Origin: Eledone cirrhosa
Taxonomy: Eukaryota
Assembly (NCBI GenBank): GCA_964016885.1
Contig: OZ024744.1
Span: 129,084,001-129,148,000 of the forward strand
Length of the DNA stretch: 64,000 nucleotides
Reading direction: 5' to 3'
The notes under the pieces were generated by a model. The model saw only the letters and a list, made by a program, of their open reading frames with translations. It had not been told where the DNA came from and ran no database searches. A program made the position numbers and the translations under genes. Below are positions 1-64,000 of the stretch, piece by piece. The stretch's first letter is position 1. Every line of letters begins with the position of its first letter.

Positions 1-3000
1 ATTTAAATTGGGGTTAATTTAAATTTGTTGTTAAGTTAAGTTGGGGTTAATTTAAGTTGGGGTTAAGTTAAGTTGGGGTTGAGTTAAGTTGGGGTTGAGT
101 GAAGTTGGGGTTAAGTTAAGTTGGGGTTGGGTTGAGTTAAGTTGGGGTTAATTTAAGTTGGGGCTAAGTTCATTTGGGGTTCAGTTAAGTTGGGGTTAAA
201 TTAAGTTGGGGTTAAGTTAAGTTGGGGTTAAATTAAGTTGGGGTTAAGTTAAGTTGGGGTTAAGTTAAGTTGGGGTTAAGTTAATTTGGGGTTAAGTGAA
301 GTTAGGGTTAAGTTAAGTTGGGGTTGAGTTAAGTTGGGGGTAAGTTAAGTTGGGGTTATGTTAAGTTGGGGTTACGTTAAGTTGGGTTTAAGTTAAGTTG
401 GGGTTAAGTTAAGTTGGGGTTAAGTTAAGTTGGTGTTAATTTAAGTTGGGGTTAAGTTAAGTTGGGATTAATTTAAGTTGGGGTTAAGTTAAGTTGGGGT
501 TAAGTTAAGTTGGGGTTAAATTAAGTTGGGGTTAAGTTAAGTTGGGGTTAAGTTAAGTTGGGGTTAAGTTAATTTGGGGTTAAGTTAAGTTAGGGTAAAG
601 TTAAGTTGGGGTTGAGTTAAGTTGGGGTAAGTTAAGTTGGGGTTAAGTTAAGTTGGGGTTAAGTTAAGTTGGGGTTAAGTTAAGTTAGGCTTAACTTAAG
701 TTGGGGTTAAGTTAAGTTGGGGGTGAGTTAAGTTGGGGGTAAGTTAAGTTGGGGTTAAGTTAAGTTGGGGTTAAGTTGGGGTTAAGTTAAGTTAGGGTTA
801 AGTTAATTTGGGGTTGAGTTAAGTTGGGGTTAAGTTAAGTGGTGGTTATGTTAAGTTGGGGTTAAGTTAAGTTGGGGTTAATTTAAATTGGGGTTAATTT
901 AAATTTGTTGTTAAGTTAAGTTGGGGTTAATTTAAGTTGGGGTTAAGTTAAGTTGGGGTTGAGTTAAGTTGTGGTTGAGTGAAGTTGGGGTTAAGTTAAG
1001 TTGGGGTTAAATTAAGTTGGGGTTAAGTTAAGTTGGGGTTGAGTTAAGTTGGGGTTAATTTAAGTTGGGGCTAAGTTAATTTGGGGTTAAGTTAAGTTGG
1101 GGTTAAATTAAGTTGGGGTTAAGTTAAGTTGGGGTTAAGTTAAGTTGGGGTTAAGTTAATTTGGGGTTAAGTGAAGTTAGGGTTAAGTTAAGTTGGGGCT
1201 GAGTTAAGTTGGGGGTAAGTTAAGTTGGGGTTATGTTAAGTTGGGGTTAAGTTAAGTTGGGGTTAAGTTAAGTTGGGGTTCAGTTAAGTTGCGGTTAAGT
1301 TAAGTTGGGGTTAAGTTAAGTTGGGGTTAAGTTAAGTTGGGGTTAATTTAAGTTGGGGTTAAGTTAAGTTGGGGTTAAGTTAATTTGTGGTTAAGTTAAG
1401 TTGGGGTTAAGTTAAGTTGGGGTTAAATTCAGTCGGGGTTAAGTTAAGTCGGGGTTAAGTTACGTTGGGGTTAAGTTAAGTTGGGGTTAAGTTAAGTTGG
1501 GGTTGAGTTAAGTTGGGGTTAAGTTAAGTTGGGGTTAAGTTAAGTTGGGGTTAAGTTAAGTTGGGGTTAAGTTAAGTTGGGGTTAATTTAAGTTGGGGTT
1601 AAGTTAAGTTGGGGTTAATTTAAGTTGGGGTTAATTTAAGTTGGGGTTAAGTTAAGTTGGGGTTAAGTTAAGTTGGGGTTAAGTTAAGTTGGGGTTAAGT
1701 TGGGGTTAAGTTAAGTTAGGGTTAACTTAAGTTGGGGTTGTGTTAAGTGGTGGTTATGTTAAGTGGTGGTTATGTTAAGTTGGGGTTAAGTTAAGTTGGG
1801 GTTAAGTTAAGTTGGGGTTAAGTTAAGTTGGGGTTAAGTTAATTAGGGTTAAGTTAAGTTGGGTTTAAGTTAAGTTGGGGTTAAGTTAATTTGTGGTTAA
1901 GTTAAGTTGGGGTTAAGTTAAGTTGGGGTTAAGTTAAGTTGGGGATACGTTAAGTTGGGGATAAGTTAAGTTGGGGTTAATTAAGTTGGGTTTAAGTTAA
2001 GTTGGGGTTAAGTTAAGTCGGGGTTAAGTTAAGTTGGGGTTAAGTTAAGTTGGGGGTAAGATAAGTTGGGGTTAGTTAAGTTGCGGTTAAGTTAAGTTGG
2101 GGTTAAGTTAAGTTGGGGTTAAGTTAAGTTGGGGTTAAGTTAAGTTGGGGTTAATTTAAGTTGGGGTTAATTTAAGTTGGGGTAAAGTTAAGTTGGGGGT
2201 AAGTTAAGTTGGGGTTAAGTTAAGTTGGGGTTAAGTTGGGGTTAAGTTAAGTTAGGGTTAACTTAAGTTGGGGTTGTGTTAAGTGGTGGTTATGTTAAGT
2301 GGTGGTTATGTTAAGTTGGGGTTAAGTTAAGTTGGGGTTAAGTTAAATTGGGGTTAAGTTAAGTTGCGGTTAAGTTAAGTTGGGGTTAAGTTAAGTTGGG
2401 GTTAAGTTAATTAGGGTTAAGTTAAGTTGGGGTTAAGTTAAGTTGGGGTTAAGTTAAGTTGGGGTTAAGTTAATTTGTGGTTAAGTTAAGTTGGGGTTAA
2501 GTTAAGTTGGGGTTAAGTTAAGTTGGGGATAAGTTAAGTTGAGGATAAGTTAAGTTGGGGTTAATTAAGTTGGGTTTAAGTTAAGTTGGGGTTAAGTTAA
2601 GTTGGGGTTAAGTTAAGTTGGGCTTAAGTTAAGTTGGTTAGTTAAGTTGAGTTTAAGTTAAGTTGGGGTTAATTTAAGTTGGGGTTAAGTTAAGTTGGGG
2701 TTAAGTTAATTTGGGGTTAAGTTAAGTTGGGGTTCAGTTAAGTTGGGGTTAAGTTAAGTTGGGGTTAAGTTGGGGTAAAATTAAGTTGGGGTTAAGTTAA
2801 GTTGCGGTTAAGTTAAAATGAGGTTAAGTTAAGTTGGGGTTAAGTTAAGTTGGGGTTAAGTTAAGTTGGGGCTAAGTTAAGTTGGGGCTAAGTTAAGTTG
2901 GGGCTAAGTTAAGTTGGGATTAAGTTAACTTTGGGTTAAGTTAAGTTGGGTTTGAGTTAAGTTGGGGTTAATTAAGTTGGGGTTAAGTTAAGTTGGGGTT

Positions 3001-6000
3001 AAGTTAAGTTGGGGTTAAGTTAAGTTGGGGTTAAGTTAAGTTGATGTTAAGTTAAGTTGGGGTTAATTTAAGTTGGGGTTAAGTTAAGTTGGGGCTAAGT
3101 TAAGTTGGGGTTAAGTTAATTAGGGTTAAGTTAAGTTGGGGTTAAGTTAAGTTGGGGTTAAGTTAAGTTGGGGTTAAGTTAATTTGTGGTTAAGTTAAGT
3201 TGGGGTTAAGTTAAGTTGGGGTTAAGTTAAGTTGGGGATAAGTTAAGTTGAGGATAAGTTAAGTTGGGGTTAATTAAGTTGGGTTTAAGTTAAGTTGGGG
3301 TTAAGTTAAGTTGGGGTTAAGTTAAGTTGGGGTTAAGTTAAGTTGGGGTTAAGTTAAGTTGGTTAGTTAAGTTGAGTTTAAGTTAAGTTGGGGTTAATTT
3401 AAGTTGGGGTTAAGTTAAGTTGGGGTTAAGTTAATTTGGGGTTAAGTTAAGTTGGGGTTCAGTTAAGTTGGGGTTAAGTTGTAGTTGGGGTTAAGTTGGG
3501 GTAAAATTAAGTTGGGGTTAAGTTAAGTTGCGGTTAAGTTAAAATGAGGTTAAGTTAAGTTGGGGTTAAGTTAAGTTGGGGTTAAGTTAAGTTGGGGCTA
3601 AGTTAAGTTGGGGCTAAGTTAAGTTGGGGCTAAGTTAAGTTGGGGTTAAGTTAACTTTGGGTTAAGTTAAGTTGGGTTTGAGTTAAGTTGGGGTTAATTA
3701 AGTTGGGGTTAAGTTAAGTTGGGGTTAAGTTAAGTTGGGGTTAAGTTAAGTTGGGGTTAAGTTAAGTTGATGTTAAGTTAAGTTGGGGTTAATTTAAGTT
3801 GGGGTTAAATTAAGTTGGGGCTAAGTTAAGTTGGAGCTAAGTTAAGTTGGGGCTAAGTTAAGTTGGGGTTAAGTTAAGTTGGGGTTAAGTTAAGGTGGGG
3901 TTAAGTTAAGTTGGGGTCAACTTAAGTTGGGGTTAAGTTAAGTTGGGGTTAACTTAAGTTGGGGTTAAGTTAAGTTGGGGTTAAGTTAAGTTGGGGTTAA
4001 GTTAAGTTGGGGTTACTTTAAGTTGGGGGTAAGTTAAGTTGGTGGTAAGTTAAGTTGGGGGTAAGTTAAGATGGGGTTAAGTTAGGGTTAAGTTAAGTTA
4101 GGGTTAAGTTAATTTGGGGTTGAGTTAAGTTGGGGTTAAGTTAAGTGGTGGTTATGTTAAGTTGGGGTTAAGTTAAGTTGGGGTTAATTTAAATTGGGGT
4201 TAATTTAAATTTGTTGTTAAGTTAAGTTGGGGTTAATTTAAGTTGGGGTTAAGTTAAGTTGGGGTTGAGTTAAGTTGGGGTTGAGTGAAGTTGGGGTTAA
4301 GTTAAGTTGGGGTTGAGTTAAGTTGGGGTTAATTTAAGTTGGGGCTAAGTTCATTTGGGGTTCAGTTAAGTTGGGGTTAAATTAAGTTGGGGTTAAGTTA
4401 AGTTGGGGTTAAATTAAGTTGGGGTTAAGTTAAGTTGGGGTTAAGTTAAGTTGGGGTTAAGTTAATTTGGGGTTAAGTGAAGTTAGGGTTAAGTTAAGTT
4501 GGGGTTGAGTTAAGTTGGGGGTAAGTTAATTTGGGGTTATGTTAAGTTGGGGTTACGTTAAATTGGGTTTAAGTTAAGTTGGGGTTAAGTTAAGTTGGGG
4601 TTAAGTTAAGTTGGGGTTAATTTAAGTTGGGGTTAAGTTAAGTTGGGATTAATTTAAGTTGGGGTTAAGTTAAGTTGGGGTTAAGTTAAGTTGGGGTTAA
4701 ATTAAGTTGGGGTTAAGTTAAGTTGGGGTTAAGTTAAGTTGGGGTTAAGTTAATTTGGGGTTAAGTTAAGTTAGGGTAAAGTTAAGTTGGGGTTGAGTTA
4801 AGTTGGGGTAAGTTAAGTTGGGGTTAAGTTAAGTTGGGGTTAAGTTAAGTTGGGGTTAAGTTAAGTTAGGCTTAACTTAAGTTGGGGTTAAGTTAAGTTG
4901 GGGGTGAGTTAAGTTGGGGGTAAGTTAAGTTGGGGTTAAGTTAAGTTGGGGTTAAGTTGGGGTTAAGTTAAGTTAGGGTTAAGTTAATTTGGGGTTGAGT
5001 TAAGTTGGGGTTAAGTTAAGTGGTGGTTATGTTAAGTTGGGGTTAAGTTAAGTTGGGGTTAATTTAAATTGGGGTTAATTTAAATTTGTTGTTAAGTTAA
5101 GTTGGGGTTAATTTAAGTTGGGGTTAAGTTAAGTTGGGGTTGAGTTAAGTTGTGGTTGAGTGAAGTTGGGGTTAAGTTAAGTTGGGGTTAAATTAAGTTG
5201 GGGTTAAGTTAAGTTGGGGTTGAGTTAAGTTGGGGTTAATTTAAGTTGGGGCTAAGTTAATTTGGGGTTAAGTTAAGTTGGGGTTAAATTAAGTTGGGGT
5301 TAAGTTAAGTTGGGGTTAAGTTAAGTTGGGGTTAAGTTAATTTGGGGTTAAGTGAAGTTAGGGTTAAGTTAAGTTGGGGCTGAGTTAAGTTGGGGGTAAG
5401 TTAAGTTGGGGTTATGTTAAGTTGGGGTTAAGTTAAGTTGGGGTTAAGTTAAGTTGGGGTTCAGTTAAGTTGCGGTTAAGTTAAGTTGGGGTTACGTTAA
5501 GTTGGGGTTAAGTTAAGTTGGGGTTAATTTAAGTTGGGGTTAAGTTAAGTTGGGGTTAAGTTAAGTTGGGGTTAAATTCAGTCGGGGTTAAGTTAAGTCG
5601 GGGTTAAGTTACGTTGGGGTTAAGTTAAGTTGGGGTTAAGTTAAGTTGGGGTTGAGTTAAGTTGGGGTTAAGTTAAGTTGGGGTTAAGTTAAGTTGGGGT
5701 TAATTTAAGTTGGGGTTAAGTTAAGTTGGGGTTAATTTAAGTTGGGGTTAATTTAAGTTGGGGTTAAGTTAAGTTGGGGTTAAGTTAAGTTGGGGTAACG
5801 TTAAGTTGGGGGTAAGTTAAATTGGGGTTAAGTTAAGTTGGGGTTAAGTTGGGGTTAAGTTAAGTTAGGGTTAACTTAAGTTGGGGTTGTGTTAAGTGGT
5901 GGTTATGTTAAGTGGTGGTTATGTTAAGTTGGGGTTAAGTTAAGTTGGGGTTAAGTTAAGTTGGGGTTAAGTTAATTAGGGTTAAGTTAAGTTGGGTTTA

Positions 6001-9000
6001 AGTTAAGTTGGGGTTAAGTTAAGTTGGGGTTGAGTTAAGTTGGGGGTAAGTTAAGTTGGGGTTATGTTAAGTTGGGGTTACGTTAAGTTGGGTTTAAGTT
6101 AAGTTGGGGTTAAGTTAAGTTGGGGTTAAGTTAAGTTGGGGTTAATTTAAGTTGGGGTTAAGTTAAGTTGGGATTAATTTAAGTTGGGGTTAAGTTAAGT
6201 TGGGGTTAAGTTAAGTTGGGGTTAAATTAAGTTGGGGTTAAGTTAAGTTGGGGTTAAGTTAAGTTGGGGTTAAGTTAATTTGGGGTTAAGTTAAGTTAGG
6301 GTAAAGTTAAGTTGGGGTTGAGTTAAGTTGGGGTTGAGTTAAGTTGGGGTAAGTTAAGTTGGGGTTAAGTTAAGTTGGGGTTAAGTTAAGTTGGGGTTAA
6401 GTTAAGTTAGGCTTAACTTAAGTTGGGGTTAAGTTAAGTTGGGGGTGAGTTAAGTTGGGGGTAAGTTAAGTTGGGGTTAAGTTAAGTTGGGGTTAAGTTG
6501 GGGTTAAGTTAAGTTAGGGTTAAGTTAATTTGGGGTTGAGTTAAGTTGGGGTTAAGTTAAGTGGTGGTTATGTTAAGTTGGGGTTAAGTTAAGTTGGGGT
6601 TAATTTAAATTGGGGTTAATTTAAATTTGTTGTTAAGTTAAGTTGGGGTTAATTTAAGTTGGGGTTAAGTTAAGTTGGGGTTGAGTTAAGTTGTGGTTGA
6701 GTGAAGTTGGGGTTAAGTTAAGTTGGGGTTAAATTAAGTTGGGGTTAAGTTAAGTTGGGGTTGAGTTAAGTTGGGGTTAATTTAAGTTGGGGCTAAGTTA
6801 ATTTGGGGTTAAGTTAAGTTGGGGTTGAATTAAGTTGGGGTTAAGTTAAGTTGGGGTTAAGTTAAGTTGGGGTTAAGTTAATTTGGGGTTAAGTGAAGTT
6901 AGGGTTAAGTTAAGTTGGGGCTGAGTTAAGTTGGGGGTAAGTTAAGTTGGGGTTATGTTAAGTTGGGGTTAAGTTAAGTTGGGGTTAAGTTAAGTTGGGG
7001 TTCAGTTAAGTTGCGGTTAAGTTAAGTTGGGGTTAAGTTAAGTTGGGGTTAAGTTAAGTTGGGGTTAAGTTAAGTTGGGGTTGAGTTAAGTTGGGGTTAA
7101 GTTAAGTTGGGGTTAAATTCAGTCGGGGTAACGTTAAGTTGGGGTTAAGTTAAGTTGGGGTTAATTTAAGTTGGGGTTAAGTTAAGTTGGGGTTAATTTA
7201 AGTTGGGGTTAATTTAAGTTGGGGTTAAGTTAAGTTGGGGTTAAGTTAAGTTGGGGTAACGTTAAGTTGGGGGTAAGTTAAGTTGGGGTTAAGTTAAGTT
7301 GGGGTTAAGTTGGGGTTAAGTTAAGTTAGGGTTAACTTAAGTTGGGGTTGTGTTAAGTGGTGGTTATGTTAAGTGGTGGTTATGTTAAGTTGGGGTTAAG
7401 TTAAGTTGGGGTTAAGTTAAGTTGGGGTTAAGTTAAGTTGGGGTTAAGTTAAGTTGGGGATACGTTAAGTTGGGGATAAGTTAAGTTGGGGTTAATTAAG
7501 TTGGGTTTAAGTTAAGTTGGGTTTAAGTTAAGTTGGGGTTAAGTTAATTTGTGGTTAAGTTAAGTTGGGGTTAAGTTAAGTTGGGGTTAAGTTAAGTTGG
7601 GGATACGTTAAGTTGGGGATAAGTTAAGTTGGGGTTAATTAAGTTGGGTTTAAGTTAAGTTGGGGTTAAGTTAAGTCGGGGTTAAGTTAAGTTGGGGTTA
7701 AGTTAAGTTGGGGGTAAGATAAGTTGGGGTTAGTTAAGTTGCGGTTAAGTTAAGTTGGGGTTAAGTTAAGTTGGGGTTAAGTTAAGTTGGGGTTAATTTA
7801 AGTTGGGGTTAATTTAAGTTGGGGTAAAGTTAAGTTGGGGGTAAGTTAAGTTGGGGTTAAGTTAAGTTGGGGTTAAGTTGGGGTTAAGTTAAGTTAGGGT
7901 TAACTTAAGTTGGGGTTGTGTTAAGTGGTGGTTATGTTAAGTGGTGGTTATGTTAAGTTGGGGTTAAGTTAAGTTGGGGTTAAGTTAAATTGGGGTTAAG
8001 TTAAGTTGCGGTTAAGTTAAGTTGGGGTTAAGTTAAGTTGGGGTTAAGTTAATTAGGGTTAAGTTAAGTTGGGGTTAAGTTAAGTTGGGGTTAAGTTAAG
8101 TTGGGGTTAAGTTAATTTGTGGTTAAGTTAAGTTGGGGTTAAGTTAAGTTGGGGTTAAGTTAAGTTGGGGATAAGTTAAGTTGAGGATAAGTTAAGTTGG
8201 GGTTAATTAAGTTGGGTTTAAGTTAAGTTGGGGTTAAGTTAAGTTGGGGTTAAGTTAAGTTGGGCTTAAGTTAAGTTGGTTAGTTAAGTTGAGTTTAAGT
8301 TAAGTTGGGGTTAATTTAAGTTGGGGTTAAGTTAAGTTGGGGTTAAGTTAATTTGGGGTTAAGTTAAGTTGGGGTTCAGTTAAGTTGGGGTTAAGTTAAG
8401 TTGGGGTTAAGTTGGGGTAAAATTAAGTTGGGGTTAAGTTAAGTTGCGGTTAAGTTAAAATGAGGTTAAGTTAAGTTGGGGTTAAGTTAAGTTGGGGTTA
8501 AGTTAAGTTGGGGCTAAGTTAAGTTGGGGCTAAGTTAAGTTGGGGCTAAGTTAAGTTGGGATTAAGTTAACTTTGGGTTAAGTTAAGTTGGGTTTGAGTT
8601 AAGTTGGGGTTAATTAAGTTGGGGTTAAGTTAAGTTGGGGTTAAGTTAAGTTGGGGTTAAGTTAAGTTGGGGTTAAGTTAAGTTGATGTTAAGTTAAGTT
8701 GGGGTTAATTTAAGTTGGGGTTAAGTTAAGTTGGGGCTAAGTTAAGTTGGGGTTAAGTTAATTAGGGTTAAGTTAAGTTGGGGTTAAGTTAAGTTGGGGT
8801 TAAGTTAAGTTGGGGTTAAGTTAATTTGTGGTTAAGTTAAGTTGGGGTTAAGTTAAGTTGGGGTTAAGTTAAGTTGGGGATAAGTTAAGTTGAGGATAAG
8901 TTAAGTTGGGGTTAATTAAGTTGGGTTTAAGTTAAGTTGGGGTTAAGTTAAGTTGGGGTTAAGTTAAGTTGGGGTTAAGTTAAGTTGGTTAGTTAAGTTG

Positions 9001-12000
9001 AGTTTAAGTTAAGTTGGGGTTAATTTAAGTTGGGGTTAAGTTAAGTTGGGGTTAAGTTAATTTGGGGTTAAGTTAAGTTGGGGTTCAGTTAAGTTGGGGT
9101 TAAGTTGTAGTTGGGGTTAAGTTGGGGTAAAATTAAGTTGGGGTTAAGTTAAGTTGCGGTTAAGTTAAAATGAGGTTAAGTTAAGTTGGGGTTAAGTTAA
9201 GTTGGAGTTAAGTTAAGTTGGGGCTAAGTTAAGTTGGGGCTAAGTTAAGTTGGGGCTAAGTTAAGTTGGGGTTAAGTTAACTTTGGGTTAAGTTAAGTTG
9301 GGTTTGAGTTAAGTTGGGGTTAATTAAGTTGGGGTTAAGTTAAGTTGGGGTTAAGTTAAGTTGGGGTTAAGTTAAGTTGGGGTTAAGTTAAGTTGATGTT
9401 AAGTTAAGTTGGGGTTAATTTAAGTTGGGGTTAAGTTAAGTTGGGGCTAAGTTAAGTTGGAGCTAAGTTAAGTTGGGGCTAAGTTAAGTTGGGGTTAAGT
9501 TAAGTTGGGGTTAAGTTAAGGTGGGGTTAAGTTAAGTTGGGGTCAACTTAAGTTGGGGTTAAGTTAAGTTGGGGTTAACTTAAGTTGGGGTTAAGTTAAG
9601 TTGGGGTTAAGTTAAGTTGGGGTTAAGTTAAGTTGGGGTTACGTTAAGTTGGGGGTAAGTTAAGTTGGTGGTAAGTTAAGTTGGGGGTAAGTTAAGATGG
9701 GGTTAAGTTAGGGTTAAGTTAAGTTAGGGTTAAGTTAATTTGGGGTTGAGTTAAGTTGGGGTTAAGTTAAGTGGTGGTTATGTTAAGTTGGGGTTAAGTT
9801 AAGTTGGGGTTAATTTAAATTGGGGTTAATTTAAATTTGTTGTTAAGTTAAGTTGGGGTTAATTTAAGTTGGGGTTAAGTTAAGTTGGGGTTGAGTTAAG
9901 TTGGGGTTGAGTGAAGTTGGGGTTAAGTTAAGTTGGGGTTGAGTTAAGTTGGGGTTAATTTAAGTTGGGGCTAAGTTCATTTGGGGTTCAGTTAAGTTGG
10001 GGTTAAATTAAGTTGGGGTTAAGTTAAGTTGGGGTTAAATTAAGTTGGGGTTAAGTTAAGTTGGGGTTAAGTTAAGTTGGGGTTAAGTTAATTTGGGGTT
10101 AAGTGAAGTTAGGGTTAAGTTAAGTTGGGGTTGAGTTAAGTTGGGGGTAAGTTAAGTTGGGGTTATGTTAAGTTGGGGTTACGTTAAGTTGGGTTTAAGT
10201 TAAGTTGGGGTTAAGTTAAGTTGGGGTTAAGTTAAGTTGGGGTTAATTTAAGTTGGGGTTAAGTTAAGTTGGGATTAATTTAAGTTGGGGTTAAGTTAAG
10301 TTGGGGTTAAGTTAAGTTGGGGTTAAATTAAGTTGGGGTTAAGTTAAGTTGGGGTTAAGTTAAGTTGGGGTTAAGTTAATTTGGGGTTAAGTTAAGTTAG
10401 GGTAAAGTTAAGTTGGGGTTGAGTTAAGTTGGGGTAAGTTAAGTTGGGGTTAAGTTAAGTTGGGGTTAAGTTAAGTTGGGGTTAAGTTAAGTTAGGCTTA
10501 ACTTAAGTTGGGGTTAAGTTAAGTTGGGGGTGAGTTAAGTTGGGGGTAAGTTAAGTTGGGGTTAAGTTAAGTTGGGGTTAAGTTGGGGTTAAGTTAAGTT
10601 AGGGTTAAGTTAATTTGGGGTTGAGTTAAGTTGGGGTTAAGTTAAGTGGTGGTTATGTTAAGTTGGGGTTAAGTTAAGTTGGGGTTAATTTAAATTGGGG
10701 TTAATTTAAATTTGTTGTTAAGTTAAGTTGGGGTTAATTTAAGTTGGGGTTAAGTTAAGTTGGGGTTGAGTTAAGTTGTGGTTTAGTGAAGTTGGGGTTA
10801 AGTTAAGTTGGGGTTAAATTAAGTTGGGGTTAAGTTAAGTTGGGGTTGAGTTAAGTTGGGGTTAATTTAAGTTGGGGCTAAGTTAATTTGGGGTTAAGTT
10901 AAGTTGGGGTTAAATTAAGTTGGGGTTAAGTTAAGTTGGGGTTAAGTTAAGTTGGGGTTAAGTTAATTTGGGGTTAAGTGAAGTTAGGGTTAAGTTAAGT
11001 TGGGGCTGAGTTAAGTTGGGGGTAAGTTAAGTTGGGGTTATGTTAAGTTGGGGTTAAGTTAAGTTGGGGTTAAGTTAAGTTGGGGTTCAGTTAAGTTGCG
11101 GTTAAGTTAAGTTGGGGTTAAGTTAAGTTGGGGTTAAGTTAAGTTGGGGTTAATTTAAGTTGGGGTTAAGTTAAGTTGGGGTTAAGTTAAGTTGGGGTTA
11201 AATTCAGTCGGGGTTAAGTTAAGTCGGGGTTAAGTTACGTTGGGGTTAAGTTAAGTTGGGGTTAAGTTAAGTTGGGGTTGAGTTAAGTTGGGGTTAAGTT
11301 AAGTTGGGGTTAAGTTAAGTTGGGGTTAATTTAAGTTGGGGTTAAGTTAAGTTGGGGTTAATTTAAGTTGGGGTTAATTTAAGTTGGGGTTAAGTTAAGT
11401 TGGGGTTAAGTTAAGTTGGGGTAACGTTAAGTTGGGGGTAAGTTAAATTGGGGTTAAGTTAAGTTGGGGTTAAGTTGGGGTTAAGTTAAGTTAGGGTTAA
11501 CTTAAGTTGGGGTTGTGTTAAGTGGTGGTTATGTTAAGTGGTGGTTATGTTAAGTTGGGGTTAAGTTAAGTTGGGGTTAAGTTAAGTTGGGGTTAAGTTA
11601 AGTTGGGGTTAAGTTAATTAGGGTTAAGTTAAGTTGGGTTTAAGTTAAGTTGGGGTTAAGTTAATTTGTGGTTAAGTTAAGTTGGGGTTAAGTTAAGTTG
11701 GGGTTAAGTTAAGTTGGGGATAAGTTAAGTTGGGGATAAGTTAAGTTGGGGTTAATTAAGTTGGGTTTAAGTTAAGTTGGGGTTAAGTTAAGTCGGGGTT
11801 AAGTTAAGTTGGGGTTAAGTTAAGTTGGTTAGTTAAGTTGAGTTTAAGTTAAGTTGGGGTTAATTTAAGTTGGGGTTAAGTTAAGTTGGGGTTAAGTTAA
11901 GTTGGGGTTCAGTTAAGTTGGGGTTAAGTTAAGTTGGGGTTAAGTTGGGGTAAAATTAAGTTGGGGTTAAGTTAAGTTGGGGTTAAGTTAAGTTGCGGTT

Positions 12001-13709: not shown

Positions 13710-14460
13710 AGGTTTTTCGAAAACCTTATATAATCATTTTTTTTTAGGTTTTTCGAAACACCTTATATAATCAATTTTTTTATGTTTTTCGAAAAACCTT
13801 ATATAATCATTTTTTTTATACTTTTAGAAATATTTATATCTGATTTCAAATATTTATTTTTCTAGGTTTTTCAAAAAACCTTATATAATCAATTTTTTTT
13901 AGGTTTTTCGAAAAATGTTATATAATCAATTTTTTTTAGGTTTTTCGAAAAACCTTATATAATCATTTTTTTTATACTTTTAGAAATATTTATATCTGAT
14001 TTCAAATATTTATTTTTCTAGGTTTTTCAAAAAACCTTATATAATCAATTTTTTTTAGGTTTTTCGAAAAATGTTATATAATCAATTTTTTTTAGGTTTT
14101 TCGAAAAACCTTATATAATCAATTTTTTTTTAGGTTTTTCGAAACACCTTATATAATCAATTTTTTTTAGGTTTTTCGAAAAACCTTATATAATCAATTT
14201 TTTTTAGGTTTTTCGAAAAACCTTATATAATCAATTTTTTTAGGTTTTTCGTAAAACCTTATATAATCAATTTTTTTAGGTTTTTCGAAAAACCTTATAT
14301 AATCAATTTTTTTTAGGTTTTTCGAAGTACCTTATATAATTAATTTTTTTTAGGTTTTTCGAAAAATCTTATATAATTAATTTATATCTGATTTCAAATA
14401 TTGATTTTTTTAGGTTTTTCGAAAACCTTATATAATCAATTTTTTTTAGGTTTTTCGAAA
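13710..14460. repeat. ~37-bp tandem minisatellite AGGTTTTTCGAAAAACCTTATATAATCAA(T)7-9, left array of island 1; the same array opens all five islands
   Basis: Period is 37 bp (agg at 14169 and 14206). The 18-bp perfect palindrome lies at 14169-14186. The array is occasionally interrupted by the module atacttttagaaatatttatatctgatttcaaatatt. Confidence 0.95.
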
Positions 14461-16090: not shown

Positions 16091-16099
16091 GATTTTTTT

Positions 16100-55000: not shown

Positions 55001-55384
55001 TAAGTTAATTAGGGTTAAGTTAAGTTGGGGTTAAGTTAAGTTGGGGTTAAGTTGGGGTTAAGTTAAGTTGGGTTTAAGTTAAGTTGGGGCTAAGTTAAGT
55101 TAGGGCTAAGTTAAGTTGGGGTTAAGTTAAGTTGGGGTTAATTTAAGTTGGGGTTACATTAAGTTGAGGTTAAGTTAAGTTGTGGTTATGTTAAGTTAGG
55201 GTTAATTTAAGTTAGGGTTATGTTAAGTTGGGGTTAAGTTAAGTTGGGGTTAAGTTAGGTTGGTGTTAAGTTAAGTTGGGGTTAAGTTAAGTTGGGGTTA
55301 TGTTAAGTTGGGGTTAAGTTAAGTTGGGGTTAAGTTAAGTTGGGGGTAAGTTAAGTTGGGTTTGAGTTAAGTTGGGGTTAAGTT

Positions 55385-58267
55385 AGGTTTTTCGAAAACC
55401 TTATATAATCATTTTTTTTTAGGTTTTTCGAAACACCTTATATAATCAATTTTTTTATGTTTTTCGAAAAACCTTATATAATCATTTTTTTTATACTTTT
55501 AGAAATATTTATATCTGATTTCAAATATTTATTTTTCTAGGTTTTTCAAAAAACCTTATATAATCAATTTTTTTTAGGTTTTTCGAAAAATGTTATATAA
55601 TCAATTTTTTTTAGGTTTTTCGAAAAACCTTATATAATCAATTTTTTTTTAGGTTTTTCGAAACACCTTATATAATCAATTTTTTTTAGGTTTTTCGAAA
55701 AACCTTATATAATCAATTTTTTTTAGGTTTTTCGAAAAACCTTATATAATCAATTTTTTTAGGTTTTTCGTAAAACCTTATATAATCAATTTTTTTAGGT
55801 TTTTCGAAAAACCTTATATAATCAATTTTTTTTAGGTTTTTCGAAATACCTTATATAATTAATTTTTTTTAGGTTTTTCGAAAAATCTTATATAATTAAT
55901 TTATATCTGATTTCAAATATTGATTTTTTTAGGTTTTTCGAAAACTTTATATAATCAATTTTTTTTAGGTTTTTCGAAAAAGAATGAATTCATATTCGAA
56001 ATATATACTTCTGCATTAATCTTTTTACGTTTTTTTGATTTTTTGCATTTTTTTAAAATTTAAAAAAAAAGTAAAAAATTAATGCTTTTACAAATATTTT
56101 GAAATATTTACTTTCTGGTTTCAAATTTTGCAAATTAAATTTTTTTCTAAAAAAATCAGTTTTCGAAATCAGAAGTTAATATTTCGAAAAACGCAATTTA
56201 AAAAACTCATATTAATTTTTTTTCGAATGAAGTTTTTTTATGCTTTTAGAAATATTTATATCTGATTTAAAATATTGATTTTTTTAGGTTTACCTTATAT
56301 AATCAAATTTTTTTAGGTTTTTCGAAATATCTTATATAATCAATTTTTTTTAGGTTTTTCGAAAAATTTGAGTTCATAGTCGAAATATATACTTCTGCAT
56401 TAATCTTTGATTTTTTGCATGTTTTGAAATTTAAAAAAAACGTAAAAAATTAATATTTCGAAAAACGCAATTTGAAAAACTCATATTAATTTTTTTTCGA
56501 ATGAATTCTTTTATACTTTTAGAAATATTTATATCTGATTTTAAATATTGATTTTTTTAGGTTTACCTTATATAATCAAATTTTTTTAGGTTGTTCGAAA
56601 AATCTTATATAATCAAATTTTTTTAGGTTTTTCGAAAAAGAATTTGAGTTCATAGTCGAAATATATACTTCTGCATTAATCTTTTTACGTTTTTCTGATT
56701 TTTTGCATGTTTTGAAATTTAAAAAAAACGTAAAAAATTACAAATATTTTGAAATATTTACTTTCTGGTTTCAAAGTTTGCAAATTAAATTTTTTTCGAA
56801 AAACCTAAAAAAATCAGTTTTCGAAATCAGAAGTTAAAAACGCAATTTGAAAAACTCATATTAATTTTTTTTCGAATGAAGTTTTTTATACTTTTAGAAA
56901 TATTTATATCTGATTACAAATATTGATTTTTTTAGGTTTTTCGAAAAATCTTATATAATCAATTTTTTTTAGGTTTTTCGAAAAAGAATGAATTTGAGTT
57001 CATAGTCGAAATATATATTTCTGCACTAATCTTTTTACGTTTTTCTGATTTTTTGCATGTTTTGAAATTTAAAAAAAACGTAAAAAATCAATATTTTGAA
57101 AAACGCAATTTGAAAAACTCATATTAATTTTTTTTCGAATGAATTCTTTCATACTTTTAGAAATATTTATATCTGATTTTAAATATTGATTTTTTTAGGT
57201 TTACCTTATATAATCAAATTTTTTTAGGTTTTTCGAAAAAGAATGAATTTGAGTTCATAGTCGAAATATATACTTCTGCATTAATCTTTTTACGTTTTTC
57301 TGATTTTTTGTATGTTTTGAAATTTAAAAAAAAACGTTATAAATTAATGCTTTTACAAATATTTTGAAATATTTACTTTCTGGTTTCGAAATTTTACAAA
57401 TTAAATTTTTTTCGAAAAACCTAAAAAAATCAGTTTTCGAAATCAGAAGTTAATATTTCGAAAAACGCAATTTGAAAAACTCATATTAATTTTTTTTCGA
57501 ATGAAGTTTTTTTATGCTTTTAGAAATATTTATATCTGATTTCAAATATTGATTTTTTTTAGGTTTTTCGAAAAAGAATGAATTTGAGTTAATAGTCGAA
57601 ATATATATTTCTGCATTGATCTTTGATCTTTTGTATGTTTTGAAATTTAAAAAAAACGTAAAAAATTAATGCTTTTACAAATATTTTGAAATATTTACTT
57701 TCTGGTTTCAAATTTTGCAAATTAAATTTTTTTCGAAGAACCTAAAAAAATCAGTTTTCGAAATCAGAAGTTAATATTTCGAAAAACGCAATTTAAAAAA
57801 CTCATATTAATTTTTTTTCGAATGAATTCTTTTAGAAATATTTATATCTGATTTCAAATATTGATTTTTTTAGGTTTACCTTATATAATCAAATTTTTTT
57901 AGGTTTTTCAAAAACCTTATATAATCAATTTTTTTTAGGTTTTTCTAAAAACCTTACATAATCAATTTTTTTTAGGTTTTTTCGAAAAACCTTATATAAT
58001 CAATTTTTTACGTTTTTAGAAAAACCTTATATAATCAATTTTTTTTATACTTTTAGAAATATTTATATCTTATTTCAAATATTGATTTTTTTTAGATTTT
58101 TCGAAATACCTTATATAATCAATTTTTCTAGGTGTTTCGAAAAACCTTATATAATCAATTTTTTTTAGGTTTTTCGAAAGACCTTATATAATCAATTTTT
58201 TTTAGGTTTTTCGAAAAACCTTATATAATCAATTTTTTTAGGTTTTTCGACAACCTTATATAATCAA
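55385..58267. repeat. AT-rich composite island, copy 5 (~2.88 kb, most divergent core)
   Basis: Same junctions. Six long units (about 55982, 56366, 56640, 56986, 57241, 57576) with private small deletions. Confidence 0.96.
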
Positions 58268-59092
58268 GTTGAGTTTAAGTTAAGTTGGGATTAAGTTAAG
58301 TTGGGGTTAAGTTAAGATGGGGTTAAGTTATGTTGAGGTTAAGTTAAGTTGGGGTTAAATTAAGTTGGGGTTAAGTTAAGTTGGGGTTAAGTTAAGTTGG
58401 GGTTAGGTTAAGTTGGGTTTAAGTTAAGTTGGGGATAAGTTAAGTTGGGGTTAAGTTAAGTTGGGTTTAAGTTAAGTTGGGGTTAAGTTAAGTTGGGGTT
58501 AAGTTAAGTTGGGGTTAAATTAAGTTGGGGTTAAGTTAAGTTGGGGTTGAGTGAAGTTGGGGTTAAGTTAAGTTGGGGTTAAATTAAGTTGGGGTTAAGT
58601 TAAGTTGGGGTTGAGTGAAGTTGGGGTTAAGTTAAGTTGCGGTTAAATTAAGTTGGGGTTAAGTTTAGTTGGGGTTGAGTTAAGTTGGGGTTAATTTAAG
58701 TTGGGGCTAAGTTAATTTGTGGTTAAGTTAAGTTGGGGTTAAGTTAAGTTGGGGTTAAGTTAAGTTGGGGTTGAGTTAAGTTGGGGTTAAGTTAAGTTGG
58801 GTTTAAGTTAAGTTGGGGTTAAATTAAGTTGGGGTTAAATTAAGTTGGGGTTAAGTTAAGTTGGGGGTAAGTTAAGTTGGGGGCAAGTTAAGTTGGGGTT
58901 AAGTTAAGTTGGGGTTAAGTTAAGTTGGGGTTAATTTAAGTTGGGGTTATGTTAAGTTGGGGTTAAGTTAAGTTGGGGTTAAGTTAAGTTGGGGGTAAGT
59001 TACGTTAGGGCTAAGTTAAGTTGGGGTTAAGTTAAGTTGGTGTTAAGTTAAGTTGGGGGTAAGTTACGTTAGGGCTAAGTTACGTTGGGGTT

Positions 59093-59305
59093 AACTTAAC
59101 CCCAACTTAACTTAACCCCAACTTAACTTAGACCCAACTTAACTGAGCCCCAACTTAACTTAACCCCAACGTAACTTAGCCCTAACGTAACTTACCCCCA
59201 ACTTAACTTAACACCAACTTAACTTAACCCCAACTTAACTTACCCCCAACTTAACTTACCCCCAACTTAACTTAACCCCAACTTAACTTAACTTAACCCC
59301 AACTT
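59093..59305 (-). repeat. 213-bp inverted satellite patch, copy 5
   Basis: Same sequence; 11516 bp after copy 3. Confidence 0.97.
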
Positions 59306-60387
59306 AAGTTAAGTTTGGGTTAAGGTTGGGGTTAAATTAAGTTGGGGTTAAGTTAAGTTGGGGTTAAGTTAAGTTGGGGTTAAGTTAAGTTGGGGGTAAG
59401 TTAAGTTGGGGTTAAGTTAAGTTCGGGTTAAGTTAAGTTGGTGTTAAGTTAAGTTGGGGCTGAGTTAAGTTGGGGCTAAGTTAAGTTGGGTCTAAGTTAA
59501 GTTGGGGTTAAGTTAAGTTGGGGTTAAGTTAAGTTGGTGTTAAATTAAGTTGGGGTTAAATTAAGTTGGTGTTAAGTTAAGTTGGGGTTAAGTTAAGTTG
59601 GGGTTAATTAAGTTGGGGTTAAGTTAAGTTGGGGTTAAGTTAATTGGGGTTAAATTAAGTTAGGGTTGAGTTAAGTTGGGGTTAAGTTAAGTTGGGGTTA
59701 TATTAAGTTGGGGTTAAGTTAAGTTGGGGTTAAGTTAAGTTAGGGTTAATTTAAGTTAGGGTTATGTTAAGTTGGGGTTAAGTTAAGTTGGGGTTAAGTT
59801 AGGTTGGTGTTAAGTTAAGTTGGGGTTAAGTTAAGTTGGGGTTATGTTAAGTTGGGGTTAAGTTAAGTTGGGGTTAAGTTAAGTTGGGGTTGAGTTAAGT
59901 TGGGGTTGAGTTAAGTTGGGGTTGAGTGAAGTTGGGGTTAAGTTAAGTTGGGGTTAAATTAAGTTGGGGTTAAGTTAAGTTGGGGTTGAGTTAAGTTGGG
60001 GTTAATTTAAGTTGGGGCTAAGTTAATTTGTGGTTAAGTTAAGTTGGGGTTAAGTTAAGTTGGGGTTAAGTTAAGTTGGGGTTGAGTTAAGTAGGGGTTG
60101 AGTTAATTTGGGGTTAAGTTAAGTTGGGGTTAAGTTAAGTTGGGTTTAAGTTAAGTTGGGGTTAAATTAAGTTGGGGTTAAATTAAGTTGGGGTTAAGTT
60201 AAGTTGGGGGTAAGTTAAGTTGGGGGCAAGTTAAGTTGGGGTTAAGTTAAGTTGGGGTTTAGTTAAGTTGGGGTTAATTTAAGTTGGGGTTATGTTAAGT
60301 TGGGGTTAAGTTAAGTTGGGGTTAAGTTAAGTTGGGGTTAAGTTAAGTTGGGGGTAAGTTACGTTAGGGCTAAGTTACGTTGGGGTT

Positions 60388-60600
60388 AACTTAACCCCAA
60401 CTTAACTTAACCCCAACTTAACTTAGACCCAACTTAACTGAGCCCCAACTTAACTTAACCCCAACGTAACTTAGCCCTAACGTAACTTACCCCCAACTTA
60501 ACTTAACACCAACTTAACTTAACCCCAACTTAACTTACCCCCAACTTAACTTACCCCCAACTTAACTTAACCCCAACTTAACTTAACTTAACCCCAACTT
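60388..60600 (-). repeat. 213-bp inverted satellite patch, copy 6
   Basis: Same sequence; 11516 bp after copy 4 and 1295 bp after copy 5. Confidence 0.97.
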
Positions 60601-63600
60601 AAGTTAAGTTTGGGTTAAGGTTGGGGTTAAATTAAGTTGGGGTTAAGTTAAGTTGGGGTTAAGTTAAGTTGGGGTTAAGTTAAGTTGGGGTTAAGTTAAG
60701 TTGGGGTTAAGTTAAGTTGGGGTTAAGTTAAGTTGGTGTTAAGTTAAGTTGGGGCTGAGTTAAGTTGGGGCTAAGTTAAGTTGGGTCTAAGTTAAGTTGG
60801 GGTTAAGTTAAGTTGGGGTTAAGTTAAGTTGGTGTTAAATTAAGTTGGGGTTAAATTAAGTTGGTGTTAAGTTAAGTCGGGGTTAAGTTAAGTTGGGGTT
60901 AATTAAGTTGGGGTTAAGTTAAGTTGGGGTTAAGTTAATTGGTGTTAAATTAAGTTAGGGTTGAGTTAAGTTGGGGTTAAGTTAAGTTGGGGTTATATTA
61001 AGTTGGGGTTAAGTTAAGTTGGGGTTAAGTAAAGTTGGGGTTCAGTTAAGTTGCGGTTAAGTTAAGTTGGGGTTAAGTTAAGTTAGGCTTAACTTAAGTT
61101 GGGGTTAAGTTAAGTTGTGGGTGAGTTAAGTTGGGGGTAAGTTAAGTTGGGGTTAAGTTAAGTTGGGGTTAAGTTGGGGTTAAGTTAATTTAGGGTTAAG
61201 TTAAGTTGGGGTTGAGTTAAGTTGGGGTTAAGTTAAGTGGTGGTTATGTTAAGTTGGGGTTAAGTTAAGTTGGGGTTAATTTAAATTGGGGTTAATTTAA
61301 CTTTGTGGTCAAGTTAATTTGGGGTTAATTTAAGTTGGGGTTAAGTTAAGTTGGGGTTAATTTAATTTGTGGTTAAGTTAAGTTGGGGTTAAGTTAAGTT
61401 GGGGTTGAGTTAAGCTGGGGTTAGGTTAAGTTGGGGTTAAAATAAGTTGGGGTTAAGTTAAGTTGGGGTTGAGTTAAGTTGGGGTTGAGTTAATTTGGGG
61501 TTAAGTTAAGTTGGGGTTAACTTAAGTTGGGTTTAATTTAAGTTGGGGTTAAGTTAAGTTGGGGTTATAATTAAGTTGGGGTTAAGTTAAGTTGGGGGTA
61601 AGATAAGTTGGGGTTAGTTAAGTTGCGGTTAAGTTAAGTTGGGGTTAAGTTAAGTTGGGGTTAAGTTAAGTTGGGGTTAATTTAAGTTGGGGTAAAGTTA
61701 AGTTGGGGGTAAGTTAAGTTGGGGTTAAGTTAAGTTGGGGTTAAGTTAAGTTAGGGTTAACTTAAGTTGGGGTTGTGTTAAGTGGTGCTTATGTTAAGTG
61801 GTGGTTATGTTAAGTTGGGGTTAAGTTAAGTTGGGGTTAAGTTAAATTGGGGTTAAGTTAAGTTGCGGTTAAGTTAAGTTGGGGTTAAGTTAAGTTGGGG
61901 TTAAGTTAATTAGGGTTAAGTTAAGTTGGGGTTAAGTTAAGTTGGGGTTAAGTTAAGTTGGGGTTAAGTTAATTTGTGGTTAAGTTAAGTTGGGGTTAAG
62001 TTAAGTTGGGGTTAAGTTAAGTTGGGGATAAGTTAAGTTGAGGATAAGTTAAGTTGGGGTTAATTAAGTTGGGTTTAAGTTAAGTTGGGGTTAAGTTAAG
62101 TTGGGGTTAAGTTAAGTTGGGGTTAAGTTAAGTTGGTTAGTTAAGTTGAGTTTAAGTTAAGTTGGGGTTAATTTAAGTTGGGGTTAAGTTAAGTTGGGGT
62201 TAAGTTAATTTGGGGTTAAGTTAAGTTGGGGTTCAGTTAAGTTGGGGTTAAGTTAAGTTGGGGTTAAGTTGGGGTAAAATTAAGTTGGGGTTAATTTAAG
62301 TTGCGGTTAAGTTAAAATGAGGTTAAGTTAAGTTGGGGTTAAGTTAAGTTGGGGTTAAGTTAAGTTGGGGCTAAGTTAAGTTGGGGTTAAGTTAACTTTG
62401 GGTTAAGTTAAGTTGGGTTTGAGTTAAGTTGGGGTTAATTAAGTTGGGGTTAAGTTAAGTTGGGGTTAAGTTAAGTTGGGGTTAAGTTAAGTTGATGTTA
62501 AGTTAAGTTGGGGTTAATTTAAGTTGGGGTTAAGTTAAGTTGGGGCTAAGTTAAGTTGGAGCTAAGTTAAGTTGGGGCTAAGTTAAGTTGGGGTTAAGTT
62601 AAGTTGGGGTTAAGTTAAGGTGGGGTTAAGTTAAGTTGGGGTCAACTTAAGTTGGGGTTAAGTTAAGTTGGGGTTAACTTAAGTTGGGGTTAAGTTAAGT
62701 TGGGGTTAAGTTAAGTTGGGGTTAAGTTAAGTTGGGGTTACGTTAAGTTGGGGGTAAGTTAAGTTGGTGGTAAGTTAAGTTGGGGGTAAGTTAAGATGGG
62801 GTTAAGTTAGGGTTAACTTAAGTTAGGGTTAAGTTAATTTGGGGTTGAGTTAAGTTGGGGTTAAGTTAAGTGGTGGTTATGTTAAGTTGGGGTTAAGTTA
62901 AGTTGGGGTTAATTTAAATTGGGGTTAATTTAAATTTGTTGTTAAGTTAAGTTGGGGTTAATTTAAGTTGGGGTTAAGTTAAGTTGGGGTTGAGTTAAGT
63001 TGGGGTTGAGTGAAGTTGGGGTTAAGTTAAGTTGGGGTTAAGTTAAGTTGGGGTTGAGTTAAGTTGGGGTTAATTTAAGTTTGGGCTAAGTTCATTTGGG
63101 GTTCAGTTAAGTTGGGGTTAAATTAAGTTGGGGTTAAGTTAAGTTGGGGTTAAGTTAAGTTGGGGTTAAGTTAAGTTGGGGTTAAGTTAATTTGGGGTTA
63201 AGTGAAGTTAGGGTTAAGTTAAGTTGGGGTTGAGTTAAGTTGGGGGTAAGTTAAGTTGGGGTTATGTTAAGTTGGGGTTACGTTAAGTTGGGTTTAAGTT
63301 AAGTTGGGGTTAAGTTAAGTTGGGGTTATGTTAAGTTGGGGTTAATTTAAGTTGGGGTTAAGTTAAGTTGGGATTAATTTAAGTTGGGGTTAAGTTAAGT
63401 TGGGGTTAAGTTAAGTTGGGGTTAAATTAAGTTGGGGTTAAGTTAAGTTGGGGTTAAGTTAAGTTGGGGTTAAGTTAATTTGGGGTTAAGTTAAGTTAGG
63501 GTAAAGTTAAGTTGGGGTTGAGTTAAGTTGGGGTAAGTTAAGTTGGGGTTAAGTTAAGTTGGGGTTAAGTTAAGTTGGGGTTAAGTTAAGTTAGGCTTAA

Positions 63601-64000
63601 CTTAAGTTGGGGTTAAGTTAAGTTGGGGGTGAGTTAAGTTGGGGGTAAGTTAAGTTGGGGTTAAGTTAAGTTGGGGTTAAGTTGGGGTTAAGTTAAGTTA
63701 GGGTTAAGTTAATTTGGGGTTGAGTTAAGTTGGGGTTCAGTTAAGTGGTGGTTATGTTAAGTTGGGGTTAAGTTAAGTTGGGGTTAATTTAAATTGGGGT
63801 TAATTTAAATTTGTTGTTAAGTTAAGTTGGGGTTAATTTAAGTTGGGGTTAAGTTAAGTTGGGGTTGAGTTAAGTTGTGGTTGAGTGAAGTTGGGGTTAA
63901 GTTAAGTGGTGGTTATGTTAAGTTGGGGTTAAGTTAAGTTGGGGTTAATTTAAATTGGGGTTAATTTAAATTTGTTGTTAAGTTAAGTTGGGGTTAATTT

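What the first reader, a model, noticed from the sequence alone, without database searches (positions are those of the whole stretch)
1..64000. Composite array of telomere-like 16-mer plus a fixed AT-rich cassette, amplified as multi-kb units: candidate recombination-maintained telomere or centromere
Seen: G-strand-biased repeats alternate with one cassette whose junctions never vary. Satellite variants, inverted patches and cassette are copied together in 7-11.5 kb blocks. Known: telomerase gives template-determined, largely homogeneous repeats, whereas telomerase-independent ends copy composite units of telomeric repeat plus a fixed non-telomeric segment (yeast type I survivors with Y' elements, C. 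elegans TALT survivors, complex terminal satellites of Chironomus). Inference: this array is propagated by block copying and could be a natural telomerase-independent chromosome end, or a centromeric array derived from a telomere motif with AT-rich islands. The window cannot distinguish these options.
Basis: partly seen in the sequence, partly recalled or inferred. Interest (0 to 1): 0.75.

Follow-up and report, generated by a model that had tools for sequence, protein, structure and literature searches.

The report
Internal mixed satellite, not a telomere
The alternating repeats are real, but they lie inside an 8.4-million-base internal block of an octopus-type chromosome whose genome ends in ordinary TTAGGG, so this is likely centromere-region satellite DNA that once captured a piece of a second satellite and copied it along, not a new kind of chromosome end.

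Summary
Observation largely confirmed; telomere reading refuted; centromere reading open. The window holds a G-rich 16-mer satellite, five AT-rich cassettes (2.2-2.9 kb, identical junctions) and six copies of one 220-bp inversion, copied together in near-identical blocks. It lies at 129.1 Mb of a 136.5-Mb scaffold, inside an 8.38-Mb array that ends, without a gap, 1.15 Mb before the scaffold end and switches strand internally. Of 54 ends of the 27 large scaffolds, 10 carry plain TTAGGG and none the 16-mer; a TERT exon is present. The cassette is a piece of a second satellite with its own arrays elsewhere. Its left junction occurs 59 times, all on this scaffold, in two sub-domains that likely share one origin; the right junction varies outside the window. 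Nearby copies share their upstream flank most, and the two flanks are shuffled across the cassette, as local unequal exchange would give. Host: an octopod. Closest known: Tribolium madens TmSat1/TmSat2 mosaics and human Yq12. A (peri)centromeric role is about even odds and untested. This scan reported the same array from neighbouring windows before.

The parts
1..13710 (+). 16-mer G-rich satellite tract
13711..16495 (+). AT-rich cassette 1 (2,785 bp): 37-mer tandem arms around ~350-bp units; piece of a second satellite family
16496..21436 (+). 16-mer tract
17671..17890 (-). inverted 16-mer patch, copy 1 of 6 (bounds to about 10 bp); contains a 53-bp exact inverted copy of 17620-17672
21437..23887 (+). 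AT-rich cassette 2 (2,451 bp)
21200..34699 (+). 7.4-7.7-kb tandem duplication, mosaic: pieces 21200-22689, 23587-25848 and 25887-27299 recur at 99.7-99.9% identity at offsets 7,705, 7,411 and 7,400
23888..29141 (+). 16-mer tract
29142..31298 (+). AT-rich cassette 3 (2,157 bp)
31299..44494 (+). 16-mer tract
37281..37500 (-). inverted patch, copy 2
44495..46751 (+). AT-rich cassette 4 (2,257 bp)
46119..63926 (+). 11.5-kb tandem duplication: 46119-49142 recurs at 57635-60658 (100%), 49167-52394 at 60699-63926 (99.8%)
46752..55385 (+). 16-mer tract with inverted patches 3 and 4 (47571-47790, 48871-49090)
55386..58267 (+). AT-rich cassette 5 (2,882 bp)
58268..64000 (+). 16-mer tract with inverted patches 5 and 6 (59091-59310, 60381-60610)

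Best explanation
This is part of an internal, 8.4-Mb satellite block in which a piece of a second, AT-rich satellite likely entered once and was then likely carried along passively as the block grew by local unequal exchange, and the block is likely (peri)centromeric heterochromatin rather than a chromosome end. Shown: internal position, TTAGGG at ends, cassette = piece of a satellite with its own arrays, shared junctions, near-identical blocks, shuffled flanks. Inferred steps: (1) a 16-mer, possibly from degenerate telomere hexamers, expanded; (2) one microhomology-mediated recombination or templated repair joined it to the neighbouring AT-rich satellite; (3) a template switch made one small inversion; (4) out-of-register exchange or break-induced replication between nearby copies multiplied multi-kb pieces, stretched or shrank the cassette's inner repeats and made new right junctions; (5) the block sits at or beside the centromere of an acro/telocentric chromosome (about even odds, untested).
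For: Array edges at C28:126,967,457 and about 135,348,000 of 136,499,333, no N at either edge; strand reversed at 133.0 Mb, mixed at 132.0 Mb and at the distal edge. Ends: TTAGGG at 10 of 54, 16-mer 0 of 54, AT family 0 of 54; TERT_C exon over Pfam cut-off (PDB TERT hit). Cassette family has its own arrays: C18 12.85-13.05 Mb or more, C21 35.14 Mb, C916, a related 37-mer array on C2. One origin: 59 of 59 left junctions on C28; in the 49 of 59 examined, both sub-domains share the first ~75 bases of the cassette (a few substitutions apart) and a flank variant that occurs in 0.35% of monomers. Local exchange: among 31 copies, upstream-flank divergence rises with distance (Mantel 0.615, p 0.001), the most similar copy is the adjacent one for 21 of 31, and upstream and downstream flanks are uncorrelated (-0.013, p 0.51). 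The same two-satellite design with another partner repeats at about 15 kb on C21. Other 16-mer arrays lie at 50% of C2 and 49% of C3, the latter 0.3 Mb from a degenerate hexamer tract.
Against: Downstream-flank divergence does not follow distance (Mantel 0.028, p 0.34) and the cassette only weakly (0.185, p 0.025); these are 500-700-bp alignments of repeats and are rough. The left junction is kept in all 59 exact hits although the flanks of the two sub-domains are only 88% alike, which could hint at selection (but the search could only find exact junctions). No listed contig or read from independent runs bridged the left junction (only the longest pieces shown, so inconclusive); the fine order could be partly an assembly product. 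For the centromere step: most of the 16-mer seems to lie in this one block and it was located on 4 of 27 large scaffolds only; a ~196-bp family is a rival (18,414 exact hits of a 22-mer). C28's own tips are not assembled to TTAGGG.
Confidence: 0.8

Rival explanations
1. Active centromere: the AT-rich cassette domains (or the 16-mer sea) are the CENP-A seat of C28, and the AT family is a shared centromere repeat of this genome.
For: Largest 16-mer block; relatives at the midpoints of two giant scaffolds; the AT family sits beside G-rich partners on C2, C18, C21, C28 and C916; the 37-mer holds an 18-bp perfect palindrome (shuffle p 0.001-0.003, a second test chosen after the first failed); T. 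madens mosaics are thought (peri)centromeric (PMC13081366).
Against: Overall dyad cover of the cassette is not above shuffles (0.208 vs 0.217; 20 of 30 shuffles as high). Cassettes are a few percent of the block, split in two domains about 2.4 Mb apart. C18 has two 16-mer arrays and an AT array at three places. A rival ~196-bp family exists. No chromatin data.
Confidence: 0.25
2. Chromosome-specific inert heterochromatin, like human Yq12, with no tie to the centromere.
For: The genome-wide amount of pure 16-mer (about 8.3 Mb implied) is about the size of this one block; alternating GC-richer and AT-rich arrays as in Yq12 (10.1101/2022.12.01.518658, passages).
Against: Mid-chromosome position of the C2 and C3 arrays; subterminal place fits an acro/telocentric centromere, which octopods have (PMC5646656, passages).
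Confidence: 0.4
3. Recombination-maintained, telomerase-independent chromosome end.
For: G-strand bias towards the scaffold end in most samples; block copying; C28's right tip is not assembled to TTAGGG.
Against: 1.15 Mb of other DNA lies distal, joined without a gap at the edge; strand flips; 0 of 54 ends carry it, 10 of 54 carry TTAGGG, 98.0-99.7% pure in the 6 measured; TERT exon; interstitial copies on C2, C3, C18.
Confidence: 0.02
4. The cassette is a mobile element that inserted repeatedly into the 16-mer.
For: Constant ends in the window; the family is found on several scaffolds.
Against: Flanks are the same in all copies of a domain; no terminal inverted repeat, no target duplication, longest stop-free frame 60 aa; ends differ on C18, C21, C916 and C2.
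Confidence: 0.04

Closest known systems
Tribolium madens TmSat2 cassettes inside TmSat1 (PMC13081366; abstract and whole section 7 read)
   Same: Multi-megabase mosaic; minor satellite as ~2-kb cassettes with conserved transition zones and variable inner copy number; conserved inversion sites; putative (peri)centromere.
   Different: There both satellites come from one ~110-bp element, form macro-dyads and lie on all chromosomes; here the two are unrelated, cassettes run one way in 5 of 5 window copies, the inversion is a 220-bp patch, and the composite junction is on one scaffold.
Human Yq12 DYZ1/DYZ2 heterochromatin (10.1101/2022.12.01.518658; passages)
   Same: Alternating GC-richer simple satellite and AT-rich ~2.4-kb unit in one very large, chromosome-specific block with local expansion and contraction.
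   Different: Yq12 alternates long arrays (tens of kb to Mb) at a 1:1 unit ratio; here single cassettes sit in a sea of 16-mer, in two sub-domains only.
Pericentromeric megabase blocks of telomere variants in Cycas (PMC9827991; abstract)
   Same: Canonical repeat at ends, heterogeneous telomere-like blocks inside, near centromeres of telocentric chromosomes.
   Different: Cycas blocks are the telomere heptamer and one- or two-base variants; this 16-mer matches the hexamer array at 12 of 16 positions at best (p 0.056) and carries foreign cassettes.
C. elegans TALT survivors (PMC4595603; abstract) and yeast type I survivors (PMC6071591; search listing)
   Same: Composite unit of telomere-like repeat plus a fixed non-telomeric segment, copied in blocks.
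   Different: Those are terminal, spread to all chromosome ends and arise without telomerase; this array is internal, at no sampled end, in a genome with TTAGGG ends and a TERT exon.
Drosophila centromere islands in satellite (PMC6516634; abstract)
   Same: Islands of other DNA inside simple satellite.
   Different: Those islands are complex, retroelement-rich and shown to bind CENP-A; these are short tandem-repeat pieces with no coding remnant found and no chromatin data.

Membership tests
Telomerase-independent (ALT/TALT/type I-like) terminal array | Lies at the chromosome end | tested here: not met
   Array ends at ~135.348 Mb of 136.499 Mb, next DNA joined without N
Telomerase-independent (ALT/TALT/type I-like) terminal array | Present on many or all ends in place of homogeneous telomerase repeats | tested here: not met
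   16-mer at 0 of 54 sampled ends, TTAGGG at 10 of 54; the other 44 end in neither
Telomerase-independent (ALT/TALT/type I-like) terminal array | Telomerase absent or lost | tested here: inconclusive
   TERT_C exon found three times on C27; TRBD family found nothing, control silent too; whole gene and telomerase RNA not tested
Telomerase-independent (ALT/TALT/type I-like) terminal array | G strand uniformly towards the end | tested here: not met
   Reversed at 133.0 Mb, mixed at 132.0 Mb and at the distal edge
Telomerase-independent (ALT/TALT/type I-like) terminal array | Composite units copied as blocks | tested here: met
Satellite-type centromere (criteria of 10.64898/2026.09.17.752431, passage) | Long contiguous array | tested here: met
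   8.38 Mb between edges; all interior samples were 16-mer or cassette; interior sampled, not read through
Satellite-type centromere (criteria of 10.64898/2026.09.17.752431, passage) | Family shared by several chromosomes | tested here: inconclusive
   16-mer located on 4 of 27 large scaffolds, AT family on 4 of 27 plus C916; pattern lists stop at 100 places, so these are lower bounds
Satellite-type centromere (criteria of 10.64898/2026.09.17.752431, passage) | Homogenisation and higher-order repeats | tested here: met
   Blocks at 99.6-100% identity against about 91% for random pairs
Satellite-type centromere (criteria of 10.64898/2026.09.17.752431, passage) | Gene-poor, transposon-enriched surroundings | not tested
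   No gene or transposon annotation was run on the flanks
Satellite-type centromere (criteria of 10.64898/2026.09.17.752431, passage) | CENP-A occupancy / primary constriction | not testable with these tools
   No chromatin, Hi-C or cytology data
TmSat2-in-TmSat1-type cassette mosaic | Conserved transition zones with variable inner copy number | tested here: met
TmSat2-in-TmSat1-type cassette mosaic | Macro-dyad symmetry of cassettes and arrays | tested here: not met
   Cassettes run one way in the window and in the copies painted; one inverted pair at C28:128.585 Mb
Transposable element (MITE/Helitron-like) | Independent insertion sites, terminal repeats or target duplication, coding remnant | tested here: not met
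   Shared flanks; no terminal repeat, no duplication, longest frame 60 aa
Interstitial telomeric sequence / telomere-variant block | Built of the telomere hexamer or close variants | tested here: inconclusive
   Against TTAGGG: ungapped 12/16, p 0.056; gapped p 0.014; against TTGGGG gapped p 0.003; six tests, uncorrected

The most novel reading that the evidence does not exclude
Octopod centromeres are built from an AT-rich, palindrome-bearing satellite paired with interchangeable telomere-derived G-rich partners (16-, 23- and 32-mers), and on C28 the cassette domains inside the 16-mer sea are the CENP-A seat, kept by selection on the junction: a first candidate centromere DNA for cephalopods, marking old telomere fusion points on the giant chromosomes.
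Probability: 0.15. Interest if true: 0.6.

Novelty: new member of a known kind. Interest (0 to 1): 0.24.

Why it matters
As a telomere system it does not stand. As a satellite it is a clean natural record of how such arrays evolve: one junction and one inversion act as lineage tags across 59 and many copies and show local copying with flank shuffling. It also gives concrete probes (16-mer, 37-mer, junctions) for finding centromeres in a cephalopod; my three literature searches listed no paper on cephalopod centromere satellites, and the 325-genome centromere atlas has no 'octop', 'cephalopod' or 'mollus' in its main text (its supplements were not seen).

Tried and rejected
rDNA-spacer origin: none of the 29 listed 5.8S matches is on C28 (40 of 52,904 candidates scored), Rfam found nothing in 10 loci; not supported, weakly tested. 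Cruciform enrichment of the whole cassette: not above shuffles; only the single 18-bp palindrome of the 37-mer is unusual. TRBD search for TERT: nothing, and nothing in controls. Sampling the AT family over chromosomes with one rare variant: 1 hit only, the copy it came from; uninformative. Independent runs: both repeat families are present in all 7 runs laid (X1-X3 are one sample), but no listed piece bridges a junction; best word share 0.26; no RNA holder listed. Neither confirms nor refutes the junctions. Protein atlas gave no answer. The density part used a variant monomer by mistake and was redone. A gradient of homogeneity along the array was not seen: canonical share 0.32-0.48 in 20 samples of C28.

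Full report
What is in the window. Tandem Repeats Finder and composition show a 16-mer array with G-strand skew near 0.95, broken by five stretches of GC 0.19. Of 2,940 matched monomers 42% are canonical and mean divergence is 5.2%. The five cassettes (13711-16495, 21437-23887, 29142-31298, 44495-46751, 55386-58267) share both junctions in 5 of 5 copies. They are made of 37-mer tandem arms and ~350-bp units, with no terminal inverted repeat, no target duplication and no frame over 60 aa. Taking the cassette out would leave the 16-mer in phase, with 1-3 shared bases at each side (read). Six inverted patches of about 220 bp differ by 0-1 base in all 15 pairs, and the one examined holds a 53-bp exact inverted copy of the DNA just upstream, the mark of a single template switch (inference).

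Block copying. 77% of 10-monomer words with four or more variant units recur exactly, against 0% in 20 of 20 shuffles. There are 27 diagonals of 0.9-3.2 kb, 23 at 99.6% identity or more, at offsets of 5.6-53 kb; random satellite pairs are about 91% alike.

Where it lies. The window is G000:C28:129,084,001-129,148,000; C28 is 136,499,333 bases. The array starts at 126,967,457 and ends near 135,348,000, where a short inverted patch runs straight into a 32-mer satellite; no N lies at either edge. The right edge was read continuously from 135.254 to 135.380 Mb; the interior was sampled only. It is reversed at 133.0 Mb and mixed at 132.0 Mb. So it is an 8.38-Mb internal block, 1.15 Mb from the scaffold end. 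C28's own tips are a 48-mer and a 30-mer satellite, not TTAGGG, so the true tip is not assembled.

What the ends carry. I sampled both ends of all 27 large scaffolds: 10 of 54 are TTAGGG arrays in the right orientation, 0 of 54 hold the 16-mer or the AT family, 44 end in other DNA. Six ends measured are 98.0-99.7% pure hexamer. Pfam TERT_C hits an exon above cut-off on C27, three times, whose only PDB match is telomerase reverse transcriptase (E 0.0056); the TRBD family found nothing and the whole gene was not reconstructed. Telomerase-type ends make a recombination-maintained end unnecessary, and the position excludes it. The host is an octopod: the best match of a CELSR N-terminus is Octopus vulgaris at 78% identity, the next named invertebrate at 27%, and clustered ~800-aa single-frame cadherins lie on C2 and C7 (that this expansion is typical of coleoids is recalled).

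What the cassette is. A 58-mer of the cassette has 177 exact hits, the first 100 in a 200-kb array on C18. Arrays on C18, C21 and C916 align with the cassette at 73-85%, a 37-mer array on C2 at 67%. There the family abuts other partners: a 32-mer on C18 and C916, a 23-mer on C21 (same junction again about 15 kb on), a 520-bp unit holding 16-mers on C2, each with different ends. So it is a satellite, not an element with fixed termini.

History of the junction. The exact left junction occurs 59 times, all on C28: 31 at 128.56-129.60 Mb, 26 at 132.04-132.74 Mb, 2 inverted at 124.64 Mb outside the main block. The window's right junction occurs 40 times, all at 128.56-129.60 Mb. I fetched 49 of the 59 copies (31 of 31, 16 of 26, 2 of 2). 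All 31 of the first domain have the window's right junction (2,036-3,623 bp); of the other 18, 5, 9 and 1 have three other right junctions and 3 ran past the fetched stretch (808 to at least 5,965 bp). Both domains share the first ~75 cassette bases up to a few substitutions, and a flank variant found in 25 of about 7,060 monomers, while their flanks are 88% alike against 96-98% within domains: one old junction, two lineages (inference). Among the 31 copies upstream divergence rises with distance (Mantel 0.615, p 0.001), the cassette weakly (0.185, p 0.025), the downstream flank not at all (0.028, p 0.34); the two flanks are uncorrelated (-0.013). Local copying with exchange across the cassette fits this; the downstream result shows that longer jumps occur too.

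Centromere or not. Other 16-mer arrays lie at 209.2 of 416 Mb on C2, 184.9-185.4 of 379 Mb on C3 (0.3 Mb from a degenerate hexamer tract) and at 4.8 and 9.9-10.3 of 44 Mb on C18. Mid-point positions on two giant scaffolds and a subterminal one on C28 fit centromeres or old fusion points; octopods have localised centromeres, telocentrics included (PMC5646656, passages). Against a general centromere repeat: 29,906 exact 48-mers imply about 8.3 Mb in all, about this one block; it was located on 4 of 27 scaffolds; a ~196-bp family has 18,414 exact 22-mer hits starting on C1. The cassette as a whole has no excess of dyads, though its 37-mer has an 18-bp palindrome (p 0.001-0.003, second test). Likeness of the 16-mer to the telomere hexamer is modest (p 0.056 ungapped, 0.014 gapped; 0.003 to TTGGGG, a variant seen inside the C19 telomere). 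I put the block at about even odds of holding or flanking C28's centromere, and the cassettes as the seat at about 0.15.

Independent data. Both repeat families are in all 7 public runs laid, so they are real; no listed piece bridges a junction, only the longest pieces are shown, and the best run holds 26% of the cassette's words, so the fine order is unconfirmed outside the assembly.

Comparison. It works like the T. madens TmSat2-in-TmSat1 mosaic (fixed transitions, elastic interior; PMC13081366, abstract and section 7) and like human Yq12 (10.1101/2022.12.01.518658, passages); intermixed two-family arrays are a listed class in the centromere atlas (10.64898/2026.09.17.752431, passages; supplements not seen). 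It shares only the composite unit with TALT (PMC4595603, abstract) and type I survivors (PMC6071591, listing); Chironomus ends were not read. Cycas (PMC9827991, abstract) shows telomere-like megabase blocks at centromeres. Searches listed no description of these repeats. Earlier notes of this scan on neighbouring windows reached the same verdict; my reading was written before them, they supplied the Tribolium, Yq12 and atlas leads and the 196-bp rival, which lowered my centromere odds.

Verdict. Real feature, new member of a known kind, interest 0.24.

Noticed in passing
G000:C27:13,140,648, 14,254,631 and 14,728,979 (L183-L185): The TERT C-terminal exon is present three times with identical translation and about 99% identical flanks: a recent triplication of all or part of TERT, or an assembly duplication.
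   Followed up: partly
L033 (C28:126.000-126.004 Mb): 172-bp and 730-780-bp repeats, the latter holding short pieces that look like 18S and 28S rRNA (recognised from recall); Rfam at gathering score found nothing.
   Followed up: partly
L059:2780-3220 (start of C19): About 400 bp of TTGGGG variant repeats inside the terminal TTAGGG array.
   Followed up: no
L037-L038 (C2:209.196-209.40 Mb): A 520-bp composite unit of 16-mers plus a piece of the ~196-bp family, abutting a 37-mer AT array at the midpoint of C2; the same pieces recur at C28:126.25 Mb.
   Followed up: partly
L017-L019 (C21:35.13-35.16 Mb): A second two-satellite macro-repeat: 23-mer plus about 9 kb of the AT family, same junction again about 15 kb on, 0.24 Mb from the scaffold end.
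   Followed up: partly
L178 (C28:126.96 Mb) and L113 (C18:4.80 Mb): The left edge of the C28 array and the edge of the C18 4.8-Mb array share flank sequence and a 72-mer satellite, so one edge was likely copied between scaffolds.
   Followed up: partly
L094 (C28:128.585 Mb): A short cassette with the right junction on both sides, in opposite orientation.
   Followed up: no
L120 (C3:184.60 Mb): Degenerate interstitial telomere-hexamer tract (81% matches) 0.3 Mb from the mid-C3 16-mer array.
   Followed up: no
L078 (end of C19), L067 (end of C7), L172-L174 (C28:135.348-135.372 Mb): Further short-period satellites of similar style (5-mer-based 50-mer, 33-mer, 32-mer) suggest a wider family of telomere-like minisatellites.
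   Followed up: no
window 13711-16495: The cassette is CpG-rich for its composition (observed/expected 2.65; 48 TTCGAA sites), so methylation could be read on it directly.
   Followed up: no
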